A stretch of DNA of 30,407 nucleotides from an uncultured Burkholderiales bacterium (lineage in GTDB: Bacteria > Pseudomonadota > Gammaproteobacteria > Burkholderiales > UBA6910), in assembly GCA_964528415.1 (NCBI GenBank), contig CAZGTK010000001.1:1-30407 (forward strand). Reading direction: 5' to 3'. A model generated the notes under the pieces. It saw only the letters and a program-made list of their open reading frames with translations. It was not told the DNA's origin and made no database searches. The translations under genes and the position numbers were made by a program. Below are positions 8,010 to 11,796 of the stretch, piece after piece; within the stretch, counting starts at the first letter, position 1, and each line of letters starts with the position of its first letter.

Positions 8010-8039
8010 TTGACATTGTCAGGTCTTACTGTTTAGAAT
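8010..8039 (+). promoter_or_regulatory. Sigma70-type promoter for the 8060-11796 operon with an overlapping palindrome
   Basis: -35 TTGACA (8010-8015), 18 bp, -10 TAGAAT (8034-8039). Palindrome TGACA-T-TGTCA (8011-8021) overlaps the -35. GGAG precedes ATG 8060. Confidence 0.7.
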
Positions 8040-8059
8040 GCTGACATTGGAGATGTTTC

Positions 8060-8629
8060 ATGAGTGACGGTCCCCATAGAAGTCTTCCGATGTCCCGCTC
8101 TTGGAAGCGGGTCGCCGAGTACGCGGAGAATGAGAATTTCGGGCGCGCTGACATGTGTGCCGCTGCGACCGAGGCGCTTGAGCAAACCTGCCGAAAAAGC
8201 CTCCCTTCGGAGTTGATGGAAGGATTACGCAGCATCTTCCTCGAACAGCAAGCCGGGCTGTTCTCCGACCGGCGTGCCGATTCGCTCGACGCGTTGCGGC
8301 CACTTGCTGCCGGGCACGGAATCGCCAGGCTCCTCCTCGATCACGCGACCTGCGTGGTGCGCGAGGGCGGAGCCGGTGAAAGTGGATTGGTCGAAGCTGC
8401 GGAGCGGATGCTCACGGCCATCGGTGAGACCTTCACGCGCCAGATTGAAGAGCACTACCTGCGTGAGGCGGCACAGCCCCTCGCAAGTCAGGCCATCGGG
8501 CGTGTGGAGAAGGCGCTTGAGGACACCGACAAGCGCGCGCTTGCGCGGCAGCTTTGCGGTCTTGAGGCGGGATCACCACGACGTGCGTCTCTCAAGCACA
8601 AGGACATCGACGACGGGGTGCCACTATAA
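8060..8629 (+). CDS. Hypothetical protein (189 aa, appears mainly helical); first gene of the QueC-like operon
   Basis: ORF with promoter and RBS upstream and a normal protein-like composition, directly followed by the QueC-like gene; no family motif recognised. Confidence 0.75.
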   Translation: MSDGPHRSLPMSRSWKRVAEYAENENFGRADMCAAATEALEQTCRKSLPSELMEGLRSIFLEQQAGLFSDRRADSLDALRPLAAGHGIARLLLDHATCVVREGGAGESGLVEAAERMLTAIGETFTRQIEEHYLREAAQPLASQAIGRVEKALEDTDKRALARQLCGLEAGSPRRASLKHKDIDDGVPL

Positions 8630-8661
8630 ACGCGCTCGTCGAATCCGCTCGCACGGATGCA

Positions 8662-10011
8662 TTGGCGCAAGTATTCGTCGATGTCGTCGAGGCTGGCGCG
8701 AAGGCGCGAACCGGACGGCGGACCTGCGAGATCGATCGCGACCTCACGTTCTCCACGGGTCATCTGGAAAGCTACTGCCTCGCGCAATGGGAGCCGGTCG
8801 TGTACGACGCGCTTGTGTTGTGCGCGGGTGTTGAGTACTGCGATCGCATCTGCCGCCGCCGCACTCACGAGTGGGGACGACGCATCGAACTTCGCGTTCC
8901 GGTGCATGAACCGGAGCGATGGAGCGCGAAGCCTGTCAGCGACGCGCTGCACGCGGCACTCGACTTCCTGACGGGCGATCGCTGGAGTGTTTCGTTCGTC
9001 AAGCGCAGGAAGGCTTTTGTCACTCCCAAGCAGTTCGCCTTCCCGATCCCGAGCGACATCGTGGCGGTCATTCCCTTCAGCGACGGGCTCGACTCGCGTG
9101 CCGTCGCCGGATTGATGCACGAGGAGATGGGCGATCAGCTCATCCGAGTCCGGCTCGGAACTAAGCCCTTCAAGCCGGGCCGCTCCGATGTGAAGCAGCC
9201 GTTCACGTCGGTCCCGTACAAGGTTAGACCGGTCGATAGCAACTTCGTCGAGACGAGCGCGCGGTCGCGCGGCTTCAAGTTCGCGATGGTGAGCGGTCTC
9301 GCCGCCCACCTGGTCGGGGCTCGGACGATCATCGTCACCGAGAGCGGTCAGGGCTCTCTTGGGCCCGCACTCGTGCCGGTCGGACAGACCTACGAGGATT
9401 ACCGCAATCATCCCTTGTACACGGACAGGATGGAGGCGGTGCTCCAAGCGCTTTACGGTCGGAGCATTCGGTTCGACTTCCCGCGTCTGTGGCACACGAA
9501 AGGCGAGACGCTCGCTGCGTTCGTCGCCGGGTGCGCTGATGGACATACGTGGGCCGATACGTGGTCCTGTTGGCAGCAGCCCCGTCAGGTTTCTGTCGTT
9601 GGGCGCAAGCGTCAGTGCGGTATCTGCGCTGCCTGCATGCTCAGGCGCCTTAGCATTCACGCAGCGGGGCTGACGGAGAACCCGGAGACCTACGTCTGGG
9701 AAGACCTTGGCGCTGCGTCGTTCGAAGGCGGCGCGGCAAAAGGGTTCAAGAAGATCACGAAGGCGTTGCGGGAATACGCCATCGCCGGGACGCTGCATCT
9801 GGAGCACCTGGCCTCGCTGCGTCACCGGAAGGCGGCGCAGGGAACGCTCGCGCTGACCGCGCGGCAGCTCGGGCTCTCGCGGGGCATCAGCGAGGCCGAA
9901 ACGCGCACCCGGCTGGATCGCCTTCTCGCGCAGCATGAGACCGAGTTGAAACGATTCCTAGAATCGCTCGGCTCGCAGTCCTTCGTGGCTCAATGGGGAA
10001 AACATCGATGA
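8662..10011 (+). CDS. QueC-like (7-cyano-7-deazaguanine synthase fold) PP-loop protein with QatC-like architecture
   Basis: PP-loop variant IPFSDGLDS; RSRGF; TESG; HP; TKGE; Zn-site WSCW...CGICAACMLRR. N-terminal extension (EYCDR...WGRRIELRVPVHEPERW...LDFLTGDRWSVSF) resembles my recollection of QatC. Start TTG 8662; the frame is open upstream to an ATA at 8626 that overlaps the previous TAA. Confidence 0.82.
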   Translation: MAQVFVDVVEAGAKARTGRRTCEIDRDLTFSTGHLESYCLAQWEPVVYDALVLCAGVEYCDRICRRRTHEWGRRIELRVPVHEPERWSAKPVSDALHAALDFLTGDRWSVSFVKRRKAFVTPKQFAFPIPSDIVAVIPFSDGLDSRAVAGLMHEEMGDQLIRVRLGTKPFKPGRSDVKQPFTSVPYKVRPVDSNFVETSARSRGFKFAMVSGLAAHLVGARTIIVTESGQGSLGPALVPVGQTYEDYRNHPLYTDRMEAVLQALYGRSIRFDFPRLWHTKGETLAAFVAGCADGHTWADTWSCWQQPRQVSVVGRKRQCGICAACMLRRLSIHAAGLTENPETYVWEDLGAASFEGGAAKGFKKITKALREYAIAGTLHLEHLASLRHRKAAQGTLALTARQLGLSRGISEAETRTRLDRLLAQHETELKRFLESLGSQSFVAQWGKHR

Positions 10012-11195
10012 CCGATACGCCACTCAGCCAGATTGCCCTAGCCGATCTTGGCGAACGCCTTCGCGTCGCGCGTGAGAACGCGAGCTTCAGGCAGAAGGAT
10101 GCCGCCGAGGCGATCTCCGTTGCCCGTACCACCTTGGTCGCCATCGAGCAAGGCCAGCGCCGCGTGCGCATGGATGAGCTCCAGCATCTTGCGAAGCTCT
10201 ACAAGACCTCGGTTAATGCGATCCTGCGAAGGGAGGCCGTACATGTCGATCTTGCCCCCCGGTTTCGCAAGCTGATCGGCGGCGACGATCTTGCCGCCTT
10301 CAAGGCAACCGAACTGCTCACCGATCTTGCGCGCGCCGAAGTCGAGATTGAAAACCTCCTCGGCATCACGCGCACGCGCAACTACCCGCCTGAGCGCCCG
10401 ATCCTTCCGGGCGACGTGCGCGCGCAGGCCGAGCAGGACGCGATCGAGCTGCGGCAGCGGCTCGGGCTGGGATTCGCCCCGGTGCATGACATCGTGACCC
10501 TGCTGGAAATGGAGATGGGCGTGCGCGTCTACGTGCGCCGAATCGACGGCAGTATTTCCGGCGTGTTCGCCTACGACGACAATCTGGGGGCGTGCATGCT
10601 GCTCAATGCGAATCATCCGCGTGAGCGGCGCAACCAGTCTGGCGGACATGAACTCGGGCACCTTGTTTCTGTGCGCCGCGAACCGGAAGTCCTGCATTCG
10701 AGCGAACCTGAGACGACGCGCGAGGAGCGTTACGCGGCGGCCTTCGCCCGCTCGTTCCTCACGCCCGCGGGAGCCGTCCGGCAGAAGTTTCAGGAGGTTA
10801 CGGCGGGATCGACGCGCCTCACCCGCCGTCATGTCATCGTGCTCGCGCACTTTTTCGGCGTATCGCGCGAGGCGATGGTCCGCAGGCTTGAAGAGCTTGG
10901 ACTTACGAAGAAGGGCACGTGGGACTGGTTCGAAGCAAACGGCGGCATCACGGACGAGCAGGCTCGGCAGGTGCTCGGCGATCTGCGCACGCCGGACCAG
11001 TACAAGGCGCAGGCCGACCGTCCGACGACCCTCAAGCTGAACCTGCTTGCAGCCGAGGCTTATCGACGCGAACTGCTGAGCGAAGGGCAGCTTGCGCGCC
11101 TGCTGCGGCTTGACCGGATCGAGCTGCGTGACCTGCTGAGCGATCTGGAATCGCAGGAGGAAGAAGCCGATGGGGCTCCGAACCTCCTTGTCTGA
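10008..11195 (+). CDS. XRE HTH fused to ImmA/IrrE (M78) metallopeptidase, with a C-terminal UPF0175-like segment
   Basis: N-terminal HTH (LRVARENASFRQKDAAEAISVARTTLVAIEQG), HELGH (HExxH), downstream ERYAAAFARSFLTP, C-terminal AEAYRRELLSEGQLARLLRLDRIELRDLL. ATG 10008 overlaps the QueC-like TGA (ATGA). Confidence 0.88.
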   Translation: MTDTPLSQIALADLGERLRVARENASFRQKDAAEAISVARTTLVAIEQGQRRVRMDELQHLAKLYKTSVNAILRREAVHVDLAPRFRKLIGGDDLAAFKATELLTDLARAEVEIENLLGITRTRNYPPERPILPGDVRAQAEQDAIELRQRLGLGFAPVHDIVTLLEMEMGVRVYVRRIDGSISGVFAYDDNLGACMLLNANHPRERRNQSGGHELGHLVSVRREPEVLHSSEPETTREERYAAAFARSFLTPAGAVRQKFQEVTAGSTRLTRRHVIVLAHFFGVSREAMVRRLEELGLTKKGTWDWFEANGGITDEQARQVLGDLRTPDQYKAQADRPTTLKLNLLAAEAYRRELLSEGQLARLLRLDRIELRDLLSDLESQEEEADGAPNLLV

Positions 11196-11796
11196 TGACG
11201 ACCGCGTTCTGGTCGCCGACACGAGCACGATCATCAATCTCAACGCCACCGGCTGCGCCGCAGACATCCTGAACGCGTTGCCGTGCCGCGTCGTGGCAGC
11301 CGATTCTGTGCGTGAAGAGCTTGAGAACGGCCGGGCAAGAGGCCGCAGCGACGCCGCCAGTTTCGAGGCGCTTGTCGGCGGCGGACATATTCAAATGGTG
11401 AGCCTCGGCGACCAGGGCCTGCTGCACTTCGAGGGACTCGTGATCGGTGCGGCAAGCGACACCCTCGACGACGGCGAGGCGGCAACGATCGCCTTTGCGG
11501 CGCAGGCAGGCGCGGTTGCGCTGATCGATGAGCGCAAGGCGCTTCGCCTGTGTGCCTCGCGTTTCCCGGCCCTGCGGCTGGCAAGCACCGTCGATGTCCT
11601 TGCGCATCCCGCAGTGCTGGGCGTGCTCGGCGCGAGCGCGCTTGCCAATGCCGTTTTCAACGCCCTTGCTCGCGGGCGCATGCGTGTCTTGCCGCATCAC
11701 ATCGACGGAGTCGTCGAACTGATCGGCCCGGGGCGCGCGGCTCAGTGCATCAGTTTGCCTCGTGAGACTCGCAGCGCCCACCGCGTCAAAGCTTGA
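11170..11796 (+). CDS. PIN-domain nuclease (DUF3368/COG2405-like)
   Basis: Acidic PIN residues in context: VLVADTSTII, REEL, LDDGEAATIA, LIDERKA; overlaps the end of the upstream gene by 26 nt. Confidence 0.8.
   Translation: MGLRTSLSDDDRVLVADTSTIINLNATGCAADILNALPCRVVAADSVREELENGRARGRSDAASFEALVGGGHIQMVSLGDQGLLHFEGLVIGAASDTLDDGEAATIAFAAQAGAVALIDERKALRLCASRFPALRLASTVDVLAHPAVLGVLGASALANAVFNALARGRMRVLPHHIDGVVELIGPGRAAQCISLPRETRSAHRVKA

What the first reader, a model, noticed from the sequence alone, without database searches (positions are those of the whole stretch)
8060..8629. 189-aa unknown may be the protein substrate of the QueC-like enzyme (QatB analogue with an N-terminal Ser)
Known, as I recall: defence QueC homologues (Cap9, QatC) have been reported to attach 7-carboxy-7-deazaguanine to the N-terminal Gly of a partner protein (the CD-NTase or QatB) instead of making preQ0. 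Seen: this ORF sits immediately upstream of the QueC-like gene, as qatB does for qatC. It looks helical, has no catalytic motif, and starts M-S-D-G-P-H-R-S-L-P, an extended-looking tail whose Met should be removed because residue 2 is small. Inference: it could be modified on an N-terminal Ser rather than Gly, which would be a new acceptor. The Gly-to-Asp change in the PP-loop may relate to altered substrate use.
Basis: inference. Interest (0 to 1): 0.72.

Follow-up and report, generated by a model that had tools for sequence, protein, structure and literature searches.

The report
Conserved-tail partner of QueC-like enzyme
This 189-residue protein of unknown fold always sits in front of a QatC-like (QueC-family) enzyme. 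Its first five residues (Met-Ser-Asp-Gly-Pro) are almost never changed, which marks it as the probable protein substrate of that enzyme in an undescribed four-gene anti-phage-type cassette.

Summary
ORF 8060-8629 is a real gene with a GGAG ribosome site and a near-consensus promoter. It encodes an all-helical 189-aa protein starting MSDGPHRSLP, directly upstream of a QatC-like enzyme whose PP-loop reads SDGLDS.

- **N-terminus.** The family is large: 595 homologues, about 500 clusters at 50% identity, at least 296 species genomes and 14 plasmids. Members share only about 37% identity, yet the extreme N-terminus is the most conserved stretch. 233 of 269 proteins begin exactly MSDGP. Synonymous sites vary freely, so the constraint is on the protein.
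- **Complex.** A co-fold with the enzyme scores 0.90 against 0.28 for the best control. Residues 5-15 lie in the interface. Residues 2-4 were not placed confidently.

In 80 of 80 loci the QatC-like gene follows directly, usually with overlapping stop and start codons. An HTH-M78 peptidase and a DUF3368 PIN gene come next.

The protein is not a detectable QatB homologue by HMM, profile-profile comparison or fold search. It is an analogue with a short tail and Ser, not Gly, at position 2.

The enzyme's PP-loop position 2 is D, E or N, never G. The two nucleobase-pocket positions are invariant D and R.

Covalent modification and its chemistry are untested. The scan had already flagged this cassette on this same window, not on other DNA.

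The parts
8010..8047 (+). Promoter with operator-like repeats. The palindrome TTGACAtTGTCAG (8010-8022) overlaps the -35 box. TAGAAT is the -10 box (8034-8039). A further half-site CTGACAT lies at 8041-8047.
   Evidence: Promoter scan gives 11 of 12. TTGACA is present upstream in 81 of 81 homologous loci, the GACA-N1-3-TGTC palindrome in 79 of 81 and CTGACA in 66 of 81, across several phyla. This is probably the operator of the cassette's own XRE-HTH protein (inference).
8049..8052 (+). Ribosome-binding site GGAG, 7 nt before the ATG.
   Evidence: Read from the sequence. The same TGGAG or GGAGG is seen in most homologous loci.
8060..8629 (+). Gene for the 189-aa all-helical partner protein (P0001).
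   Evidence: There are 595 homologues, nearly all 186-190 aa. AF2 mean pLDDT is 91.
8060..8104 (+). N-terminal tail, residues 1-15 (MSDGPHRSLPMSRSW). The near-invariant motif is M1-S2-D3-G4-P5, then S8, L9 and W15.
   Evidence: Residues 5-10, 12 and 15 lie in the predicted interface.
8603..8626 (+). Conserved C-terminal peptide, residues 182-189 (consensus G-L-D-D-G-V-x-L), after a disordered variable linker (about 166-181).
   Evidence: G186 is invariant and D184 is over 90% conserved. pLDDT is 51-61. Its function is unexplained.
8662..10011 (+). QatC-like QueC-family PP-loop enzyme (P0002). The first usable start is TTG at 8662. The ancestral overlapping start position (8626) reads ATA here.
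9079..9096 (+). PP-loop S140-D141-G142-L143-D144-S145.
   Evidence: Position 141 is D, E or N and never G in 120 homologues and 77 loci. QatC has SGGxDS (PMC13329287).
9397..9414 (+). D246-Y-R248-N-H-P. By alignment, D246 and R248 take the places of QatC T278 and T280 (Cap9 Y115 and D117).
   Evidence: Alignment to 9zee_B. Both are invariant in the family. The residue roles come from PMC13279940.
9993..11195 (+). XRE-HTH + M78 (ImmA/IrrE) peptidase + UPF0175-like tail. It overlaps the QueC-like gene.
   Evidence: It follows the QueC-like gene in 78 of 80 loci; the other two end at a contig edge.
11170..11796 (+). DUF3368 / PDC-S70 PIN-like protein, overlapping the preceding gene by 26 nt.
   Evidence: Present in 74 of 80 loci.

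Best explanation
The 189-aa protein is the dedicated partner of the QatC-like enzyme encoded next to it, and most likely its protein substrate.

Proposed steps:
1. Met1 is removed, because Ser follows it.
2. The exposed alpha-amine of Ser2 is held in register by the invariant D-G-P and by the S8/L9/W15 patch.
3. The tail is presented in the enzyme's active-site cleft, while the helical body docks on the enzyme's C-terminal extension and core loop, as QatB does on QatC.
4. The PP-loop enzyme adenylates a carboxylate co-substrate, which may be 7-carboxy-7-deazaguanine or another acid.
5. The tail amine attacks, giving an N-terminally acylated protein.

The pair is the first half of an autoregulated four-gene cassette. 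Its second half (HTH-M78 peptidase plus PIN) is the likely regulator and effector.

Shown here: the gene, the family, the N-terminal conservation, the linkage, and a predicted complex. Inferred: Met removal, the position of residue 2, the covalent modification and its chemistry, and the defence role.
For: N-terminal conservation:
- In 48 homologues picked without regard to their N-termini (about 40% identity), M1, S2, D3, G4, P5, S8, L9 and W15 are invariant. That is 8 of the 15 invariant columns within the first 15 residues (hypergeometric p about 9e-7).
- 233 of 269 family proteins start exactly MSDGP. Most exceptions are mis-called starts with M directly before SDGP.
- Third codon positions of G4, P5 and L9 use all synonymous codons, so the constraint is on the protein.
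- Ser2 and Ser8 are always AGY and never TCN, a mark of long-standing purifying selection.

Variants at residue 2:
- T and V occur. Both allow Met removal.
- One intact cassette starts GTG-GAT-GGG-CCG behind a good GGAGG. That gives M-D-G-P, again exactly one residue before D-G-P.
- The only Asn2/Ser5 variant sits in a decayed cassette in which the enzyme gene is truncated and fused to the PIN remnant.

Linkage:
- The QatC-like gene follows in 80 of 80 genome loci.
- Its start overlaps the small gene's stop in 71 of 81 loci.

Predicted complex:
- Score 0.90, best of 3 controls 0.28. The mark was reached by 58 of 80 solved complexes and 2 of 110 mismatched pairs.
- The interface uses small-protein residues 5-10, 12, 15 and 43-154.
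- On the enzyme it uses 238-244, the loop equivalent to the QatB-binding loop of QatC, and 368-402, the C-terminal extension. Both match the published QatBC geometry (PMC13279940, PMC13376578).

Enzyme:
- It keeps the QatC-specific motifs and the Zn site (compared with PMC13329287).
- It differs exactly where the tail and co-substrate should sit: PP-loop S[D/E/N]G, and D246/R248.

The host genome has canonical QueC and QueD.
Against: - No experiment: no mass, no Edman result, no mutant.
- Residues 2-4 are not among the confidently placed contacts, and no coordinates were available, so entry of Ser2 into the active site is not shown.
- The complex used my own unpaired alignments with ATP riding along. 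A QatBC complex is solved, so part of the score may reflect likeness to it.
- The tail is only about 11 residues, against 30-90 in QatB. The monomer model packs it with pLDDT 82.
- Even for QatC the reaction is unresolved, and NDG on QatB was seen only at trace level (PMC13279940, PMC13639016).
- The pocket residues D246/R248 match neither the CDG-binding Y/D of Cap9 nor the T/T of QatC.
- Covariation between tail and enzyme was uninformative.
Confidence: 0.55

Rival explanations
1. Non-covalent partner. The small protein binds the QatC-like enzyme as a regulatory or sensor subunit. Its conserved N-terminal peptide acts as a plug, pseudo-substrate or allosteric latch in the cleft and is never modified. 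The enzyme's true substrate is something else, such as a small molecule, a nucleic acid or a phage protein.
For: The complex is predicted. The small protein is the fastest-evolving of the four genes, with median identity 37% against 56, 70 and 53%, as expected of a sensor or specificity subunit. In vitro activity of QatC on QatB could not be reconstituted (PMC13279940, PMC13639016). The QatB tail contributes little to binding (PMC13376578).
Against: A plug would not obviously need an exact one-residue register before D-G-P, nor a Met-removal-compatible residue 2. The closest characterised systems use the tail amine as nucleophile (Cap9-CdnD), and NDG was detected on the QatB peptide (PMC13639016).
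Confidence: 0.2
2. Protease-processed tail. The invariant motif is a recognition or cleavage site for the cassette's M78 peptidase, for instance exposing Gly4 as a new N-terminus that is then modified, or destroying the protein on activation.
For: An M78 peptidase is present in 78 of 80 cassettes and absent from qatABCD. G4 is invariant. Known QueC-family acceptors are N-terminal Gly (PMC13279940).
Against: There is no evidence of cleavage. The M1 and S2 codons would not need to be invariant, nor sit at the very start of the protein, for an internal cleavage site. I did not test the small protein against the peptidase.
Confidence: 0.1
3. Side-chain chemistry. The Ser2 hydroxyl or the Asp3 carboxylate, rather than the alpha-amine, is the reactive group. 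Examples are O-AMPylation or O-acylation of Ser, or adenylation of the Asp side chain as in asparagine-synthetase-type PP-loop enzymes.
For: S is replaced mostly by T. D3 is invariant. PP-loop enzymes adenylate carboxylates (general knowledge of the family). The pocket has an invariant Arg (R248) that could pair with D3 (inference).
Against: Val2 and Met-Asp-Gly-Pro variants lack the hydroxyl, although their cassettes look intact as far as the contigs reach. There is no precedent in QueC-family defence enzymes.
Confidence: 0.08
4. The conservation is not about the protein. The first 30 nt would be conserved as an RNA or DNA element, such as a translation-initiation structure or an operator.
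For: The upstream operator and promoter are indeed highly conserved.
Against: Inside the ORF the third codon positions are free. G4 uses four codons about equally, P5 uses four and L9 uses six.
Confidence: 0.01

Closest known systems
QatB-QatC core of the qatABCD anti-phage system (PDB 9y01, 9zee, 9vll; PMC13279940, PMC13376578, PMC13639016)
   Same: A small all-helical protein without catalytic motifs is encoded directly upstream of a roughly 450-aa QueC-family enzyme that has N- and C-terminal extensions. Its extreme N-terminus is invariant and has a small residue 2. A 1:1 complex is predicted through the enzyme's C-terminal extension and a core loop. The enzyme keeps the QatC-specific motifs and the Zn site. 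The cassette lies in defence islands.
   Different: There is no sequence, profile or fold similarity to QatB. The motif is MSDGP, not MGTS. The tail is about 11 residues, not 30-90. The PP-loop is S[D/E/N]GxDS, not SGGxDS. The pocket is D/R, not T/T. There is no QatA (KAP NTPase) and no QatD (TatD); an HTH-M78 peptidase and a DUF3368 PIN take their place. A second conserved peptide sits at the C-terminus.
Cap9-CdnD of type IV CBASS (N-terminal deazaguanylation; bioRxiv 10.1101/2025.04.06.647259, PDB 9NTO)
   Same: A QueC-family enzyme acts on the N-terminal amine of a partner protein after Met removal. The N-terminal motif is conserved.
   Different: Cap9 is a minimal QueC of about 185 aa that keeps the CDG-binding Y/D. 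The acceptor is Gly2 of a CD-NTase. Cap10 and the signalling components are absent here.
CapH/CapP-type and Xre-COG2856(M78)-PIN modules
   Same: An HTH plus M78 peptidase sits next to a defence operon. A conserved palindromic operator overlaps the promoter.
   Different: Here HTH and M78 are fused and lie inside the operon, followed by a PIN. Any link to the small protein is unknown.

Membership tests
QatB (Pfam PF28083 / PADLOC PDLC02213) | Matches the QatB sequence model | tested here: not met
   PDLC02213 finds nothing in the window's genome, although it finds QatB elsewhere. None of 120 listed homologues carries PF28083, while all 40 QatB relatives do. hhalign of A3 against the QatB alignment A4 gives probability 2.3%. 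The A1 profile does not hit QatB chains in the PDB.
QatB (Pfam PF28083 / PADLOC PDLC02213) | QatB fold (ten-helix domain as in 9y01_A) | tested here: not met
   The model of P0001 (pLDDT 91) has no PDB match at E<=0.001, and QatB is not among its 50 best. VIA-wide gives a best Z of 7.2, at noise level. As a control, a QatB model finds 9y01_A at E 2e-9 and TM 0.81-0.88. The AFDB cluster hits of the two models do not overlap.
QatB (Pfam PF28083 / PADLOC PDLC02213) | Invariant N-terminal M-G-T-S with Gly2 as acceptor | tested here: not met
   The family motif is M-S-D-G-P. The QatB alignment shows M1, G2, T3 and S4.
QatB (Pfam PF28083 / PADLOC PDLC02213) | Long disordered N-terminal tail (30-90 aa) | tested here: not met
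   The first long helix starts at residue 13, and residues 1-10 have pLDDT 82.
QatB (Pfam PF28083 / PADLOC PDLC02213) | Encoded directly upstream of, and bound to, a QatC-type enzyme | tested here: met
   Adjacency holds in 80 of 80 loci, and stop and start overlap in 71 of 81. Binding is only predicted: score 0.90, best of 3 controls 0.28, a mark reached by 58 of 80 solved complexes and 2 of 110 mismatched pairs.
qatABCD system | QatA (KAP NTPase) and QatD (TatD nuclease) in the operon | tested here: not met
   The four genes are small protein, QatC-like, HTH-M78 and DUF3368 PIN. The same order is seen in 74-78 of 80 loci.
QatC (QueC-family cluster 2 of PMC13329287) | QatC-specific motifs: D..R..WxR, DxWxxxF, RxRxxxF, ExG, HP, P(x)4TK and the Zn Cys motif | tested here: met
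   D61/R66/W71/R73, D106/W108/F112, R201/R203/F207, E227/G229, H250/P251, P274/T279/K280 and C303/C319/C322/C325 are invariant or nearly so. PADLOC QatC 2.1e-31. 9vlk_A 9.1e-16.
QatC (QueC-family cluster 2 of PMC13329287) | Strictly conserved SGGxDS PP-loop and invariant T278/T280 | tested here: not met
   The PP-loop is S[D/E/N]GxDS and never has G at position 2. The T278/T280 equivalents are the invariant D246 and R248.
N-terminal deazaguanylation (NDG) substrate | Enzyme-dependent 7-amido-7-deazaguanine adduct on the N-terminal amine | not testable with these tools
   This needs mass spectrometry. Only precursor supply could be checked: canonical QueC and QueD are present in the 71%-complete genome. 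QueE was not searched.

The most novel reading that the evidence does not exclude
A third, undescribed class of QueC-family protein-modifying system. A QatC-like enzyme with an altered PP-loop (S[D/E/N]G) and a D/R pocket would acylate the alpha-amine of an N-terminal Ser in the motif S-D-G-P. The carrier has an orphan-fold helical body, and the acyl donor would differ from that of Cap9. The modified protein would then switch a fused repressor-M78 protease that frees a PIN nuclease. This would extend protein N-terminal nucleobase-type conjugation beyond Gly acceptors and link it to a protease-gated toxin.
Probability: 0.3. Interest if true: 0.85.

Novelty: new variant of a known kind. Interest (0 to 1): 0.7.

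Why it matters
QueC-family enzymes that modify protein N-termini were recognised only in 2025-26 (Cap9-CdnD, QatC-QatB). The QatC reaction is still unresolved. This family offers an independent, widespread second QatC-type pair, found in at least 296 species genomes and on plasmids of cultured Alphaproteobacteria. It has a different partner fold, a different acceptor motif and matching differences in the enzyme's active site.

Comparing the two pairs should show which features are needed for tail recognition and which co-substrate is used. The short, invariant tail gives a clean tryptic N-terminal peptide that is easy to follow by MS.

It also identifies the first two genes of an undescribed four-gene defence-island cassette. 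That corrects the routine annotation of the enzyme as a 7-cyano-7-deazaguanine synthase.

Tried and rejected
- **CATASP (PF20271).** The only Pfam hit is 20.8 bits, below the 29-bit cut-off, and covers 38 helical residues. I treat it as chance.
- **QatB homology.** Rejected by HMM, profile-profile comparison and fold search with a positive control.
- **Fold searches of the monomer model.** PDB Foldseek, VIA-wide, AFDB clusters and ESM Atlas gave only family members and two unnamed distant look-alikes. The Atlas feature search gave nothing usable.
- **Tail-enzyme covariation.** Mutual information on 73 pairs was dominated by phylogeny. One top pair (small R90 with enzyme L398) falls in the predicted interface, but no tail position gave a clear signal. 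Inconclusive.
- **RNA- or DNA-level explanation of the conservation.** Rejected.
- **Alternative start at Met11.** It has no ribosome site. Where a protein called from that Met could be checked (L085), the upstream DNA encodes the tail, there as MVDGP.
- **Phage genomes.** No homologue.
- **Literature.** No paper mentions DUF3368 together with QueC. The QueC-family survey does not describe this context.
- **Position of Ser2 relative to ATP.** This could not be extracted because the complex tool returns no coordinates.

Full report
**1. The observation**

ORF 8060-8629 (+) is the first gene behind a near-consensus promoter (TTGACA-18-TAGAAT, 8010-8039, 11 of 12). A GGAG lies 7 nt before the ATG. 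The ORF encodes 189 residues beginning MSDGPHRSLP.

Three genes follow in the same direction:
- a 449-aa QatC-like enzyme at 8662-10011 (PADLOC QatC 2.1e-31, Pfam QueC 5.7e-6, solved QatC 9vlk_A 9.1e-16);
- an HTH plus M78 peptidase at 9993-11195;
- a DUF3368/PDC-S70 PIN-like protein at 11170-11796.

The enzyme's PP-loop reads SDGLDS where QatC has SGGxDS.

The small protein has no curated family. Its only hit is a sub-threshold CATASP match. It folds confidently as an all-alpha protein (pLDDT 91, pTM 0.86). Residues 166-189 are disordered, and there are only about 11-12 residues before the first long helix.

The neighbourhood is a defence island: HipA, Fic and type I R-M genes.

**2. The family and its N-terminus**

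The protein has 595 homologues in the word-indexed search, nearly all 186-190 aa. An exhaustive search finds 502 cluster representatives at 50% identity.

I aligned 48 homologues picked without regard to their N-termini, at about 40% identity to the query. M1, S2, D3, G4, P5, S8, L9 and W15 are invariant. That places 8 of the 15 invariant columns in the first 15 residues (p about 9e-7). Mean column entropy is 0.18 bits for residues 1-10 and 1.82 for residues 21-165.

Of 269 family proteins, 233 start exactly MSDGP. Most of the rest are longer calls with M directly before SDGP, calls from the internal Met11, or fragments. For the Met11 call whose DNA I could read (L085), the upstream sequence does encode the tail, there as MVDGP.

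The 149-row alignment A3 and the 80 genome loci were selected through this very motif. I therefore use them for other questions only.

**3. The constraint is on the protein**

In 81 loci the third positions of codons 4, 5 and 9 use all synonymous codons: four for Gly, four for Pro and six for Leu. Ser2 and Ser8 are always AGY and never TCN. That pattern is expected when a Ser cannot pass through another residue.

The upstream DNA carries its own, separate conserved element (section 9).

**4. What residue 2 tells**

- Residue 2 is S in the great majority, T in a few and V once. By the established MetAP rule, all three allow removal of the initiator Met.
- One intact four-gene cassette (L090) starts at a GTG behind GGAGG and reads M-D-G-P. 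Met is then expected to stay, so the mature N-terminus is again exactly one residue before D-G-P.
- The only variant with a Met-retaining Asn2, which also has Ser5, lies in a decayed cassette. There the enzyme gene stops at residue 161 and is fused to the second half of the PIN gene.

These cases are few. They fit a requirement for a free alpha-amine in fixed register with D-G-P better than a requirement for the Ser hydroxyl.

**5. Linkage**

A scan of one genome per species found 296 genomes with a relative. They span Burkholderiales, Alphaproteobacteria, Acidobacteriota, Verrucomicrobiota, Binatia, Spirochaetia and others.

In the 80 loci kept:
- the QatC-like gene follows directly in 80;
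- the HTH-M78 gene follows in 78, and the other two loci end at a contig edge;
- the PIN gene follows in 74.

In 71 of 81 loci the enzyme's start overlaps the small gene's stop by 4 or 1 nt.

Median identity to the window is 37% for the small protein, 56% for the enzyme, 70% for the M78 protein and 53% for the PIN. The small protein is therefore the fastest-evolving member, apart from its two ends.

Fourteen plasmids carry the cassette and no phage does. On Pannonibacter plasmid p.BB_2 it again lies among TA and R-M genes. The enzyme there is annotated as a 7-cyano-7-deazaguanine synthase.

**6. The enzyme**

Thirty homologues at 59-79% identity keep the motifs that PMC13329287 lists as specific to the QatC cluster:
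- D61..R66..W71xR73;
- D106xW108xxxF112;
- R201xR203;
- E227xG229;
- H250-P251;
- P274(x)4T279-K280;
- the Zn cysteines C303, C319, C322 and C325.

Two things differ from QatC. First, PP-loop position 2 is D, E or N in 120 homologues and 77 loci, and never G. Second, by the ungapped alignment anchored on H-P, QatC T278 and T280 correspond to the invariant D246 and R248. T278 and T280 are themselves the places of Cap9 Y115 and D117, which hold the deazaguanine (PMC13279940).

So the enzyme differs from QatC exactly where ATP, the co-substrate and the tail should meet, and the partner's tail differs too (S-D-G-P against G-T-S). Pairing of D3 with R248 is an attractive inference, not a result.

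**7. Predicted complex**

I co-folded the enzyme (alignment A2), ATP and residues 2-189 of the small protein (alignment A3). The score is 0.90 and the best of 3 controls is 0.28. The mark was reached by 58 of 80 solved complexes and 2 of 110 mismatched pairs.

Confident contacts on the small protein are residues 5-10, 12, 15 and parts of 43-154. On the enzyme they are:
- 68-74 and 97-108, in the N-terminal extension, including the WxR and DxW motifs;
- 238-244, the loop just before D246, equivalent to the QatB-binding loop N265-H282 of QatC;
- 304 and 322-323, next to the Zn site;
- 368-402 and 444-445, in the C-terminal extension.

This is the geometry published for QatBC (PMC13279940, PMC13376578).

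Limits:
- my own unpaired alignments were used;
- a small molecule rode along;
- a QatBC complex is solved, so some of the score may be memory;
- residues 2-4 are not in the confident list;
- no coordinates were returned, so entry of Ser2 into the active site remains untested.

**8. Analogue, not homologue, of QatB**

- The QatB HMM finds nothing in this genome.
- None of the homologues carries the QatB Pfam family, while QatB relatives all do.
- Profile-profile comparison gives 2.3% probability.
- The model has no significant PDB or Atlas match.
- As a control, a QatB model built the same way finds the QatB crystal structure at E 2e-9.
- The AFDB cluster hits of the two models are disjoint.

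**9. Context**

The sequence upstream of the gene is conserved across phyla. A palindrome TTGACAtTGTCAG overlaps the -35 box, and CTGACAT follows the -10 box. TTGACA is present in 81 of 81 loci, the palindrome in 79 of 81 and CTGACA in 66 of 81. This looks like the operator of the cassette's own XRE domain, so the operon is probably autoregulated.

The host genome is a 71%-complete assembly. It has a canonical QueC and a QueD, so CDG could be available.

**10. Reading**

The most likely explanation (about 0.55) is that the protein is the dedicated substrate of the QatC-like enzyme, modified on the alpha-amine of Ser2 after Met removal.

Rivals:
- a non-covalent regulatory partner whose tail plugs the cleft (0.2);
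- a tail processed by the M78 peptidase (0.1);
- side-chain chemistry on Ser2 or Asp3 (0.08);
- a nucleic-acid element (refuted).

The identity of the acyl donor is open. It is unresolved even for QatC, where NDG on QatB was seen only at trace level by LC-MS/MS (PMC13639016) and activity could not be reconstituted (PMC13279940).

**11. Novelty**

I found no paper describing this cassette or this partner family. It is a new variant of the QueC-family enzyme plus N-terminal-tail substrate theme. The partner fold, acceptor motif, active-site variant and downstream module all differ from the known systems.

A follow-up covered its last two genes (e1-5305780). The scan has not seen it on other DNA.

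Noticed in passing
window 8626-8664: In 71 of 81 loci the QatC-like gene starts with an ATG or GTG that overlaps the small gene's stop. In this window that codon reads ATA (8626-8628), and the first usable start is TTG at 8662, 32 nt downstream. This makes the enzyme about 12 residues shorter than its homologues (449 against 460-464 aa). The lost residues are poorly conserved. Whether ATA initiates is unknown.
   Followed up: partly
window 8010-8047 and loci L005-L084: There is an operator-like palindrome TTGACAtTGTCAG over the -35 box and a CTGACAT half-site after the -10 box. Both are conserved across phyla in front of the small gene (79-81 of 81 and 66 of 81 loci). This is probably the binding site of the cassette's XRE-HTH domain.
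   Followed up: partly
window 8603-8626 (residues 182-189): A second conserved terminal peptide (consensus G-L-D-D-G-V-x-L, G186 invariant) sits at the very C-terminus after a variable disordered linker. It is not in the confident interface with the enzyme. It may dock to the M78 or PIN protein. It is unexplained.
   Followed up: no
window 8063-8065, 8081-8083 and 81 loci: Ser2 and Ser8 are encoded only by AGC or AGT, never by TCN, in all loci examined.
   Followed up: yes
L086:2501-4011: This is a decayed cassette. The small protein has a divergent N-terminus (MNDGS). It is followed by a fusion of QatC-like residues 2-161 to PIN residues 87-186, and the M78 gene is gone.
   Followed up: partly
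AFDB clusters Q12C75 (213 aa) and A0A328EN08 (211 aa): These unnamed proteins have the same predicted fold as the small protein (TM 0.71 and 0.59, 15-16% identity). They may form a sister family with another N-terminus or partner.
   Followed up: no
G000:C146:1711-2283: The genome has a second QueC-family hit (110.9 bits, 220-aa frame) besides the canonical QueC on C534 and the QatC-like gene of the window.
   Followed up: no
L093 (Pannonibacter phragmitetus BB plasmid p.BB_2, 19963-23666) and 13 other plasmids: The same four-gene cassette occurs on plasmids of cultured Alphaproteobacteria (Labrenzia, Rhizobium, Bosea, Methylocystis). On p.BB_2, the one record inspected, it lies among TA and R-M genes and the enzyme is annotated as 7-cyano-7-deazaguanine synthase.
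   Followed up: partly
window 8477-8590 (residues 140-177): A weak match to Pfam CATASP (CATRA-associated small protein) has E 3.6e-4 and 20.8 bits, below the 29-bit cut-off. It is probably helical-composition noise.
   Followed up: partly
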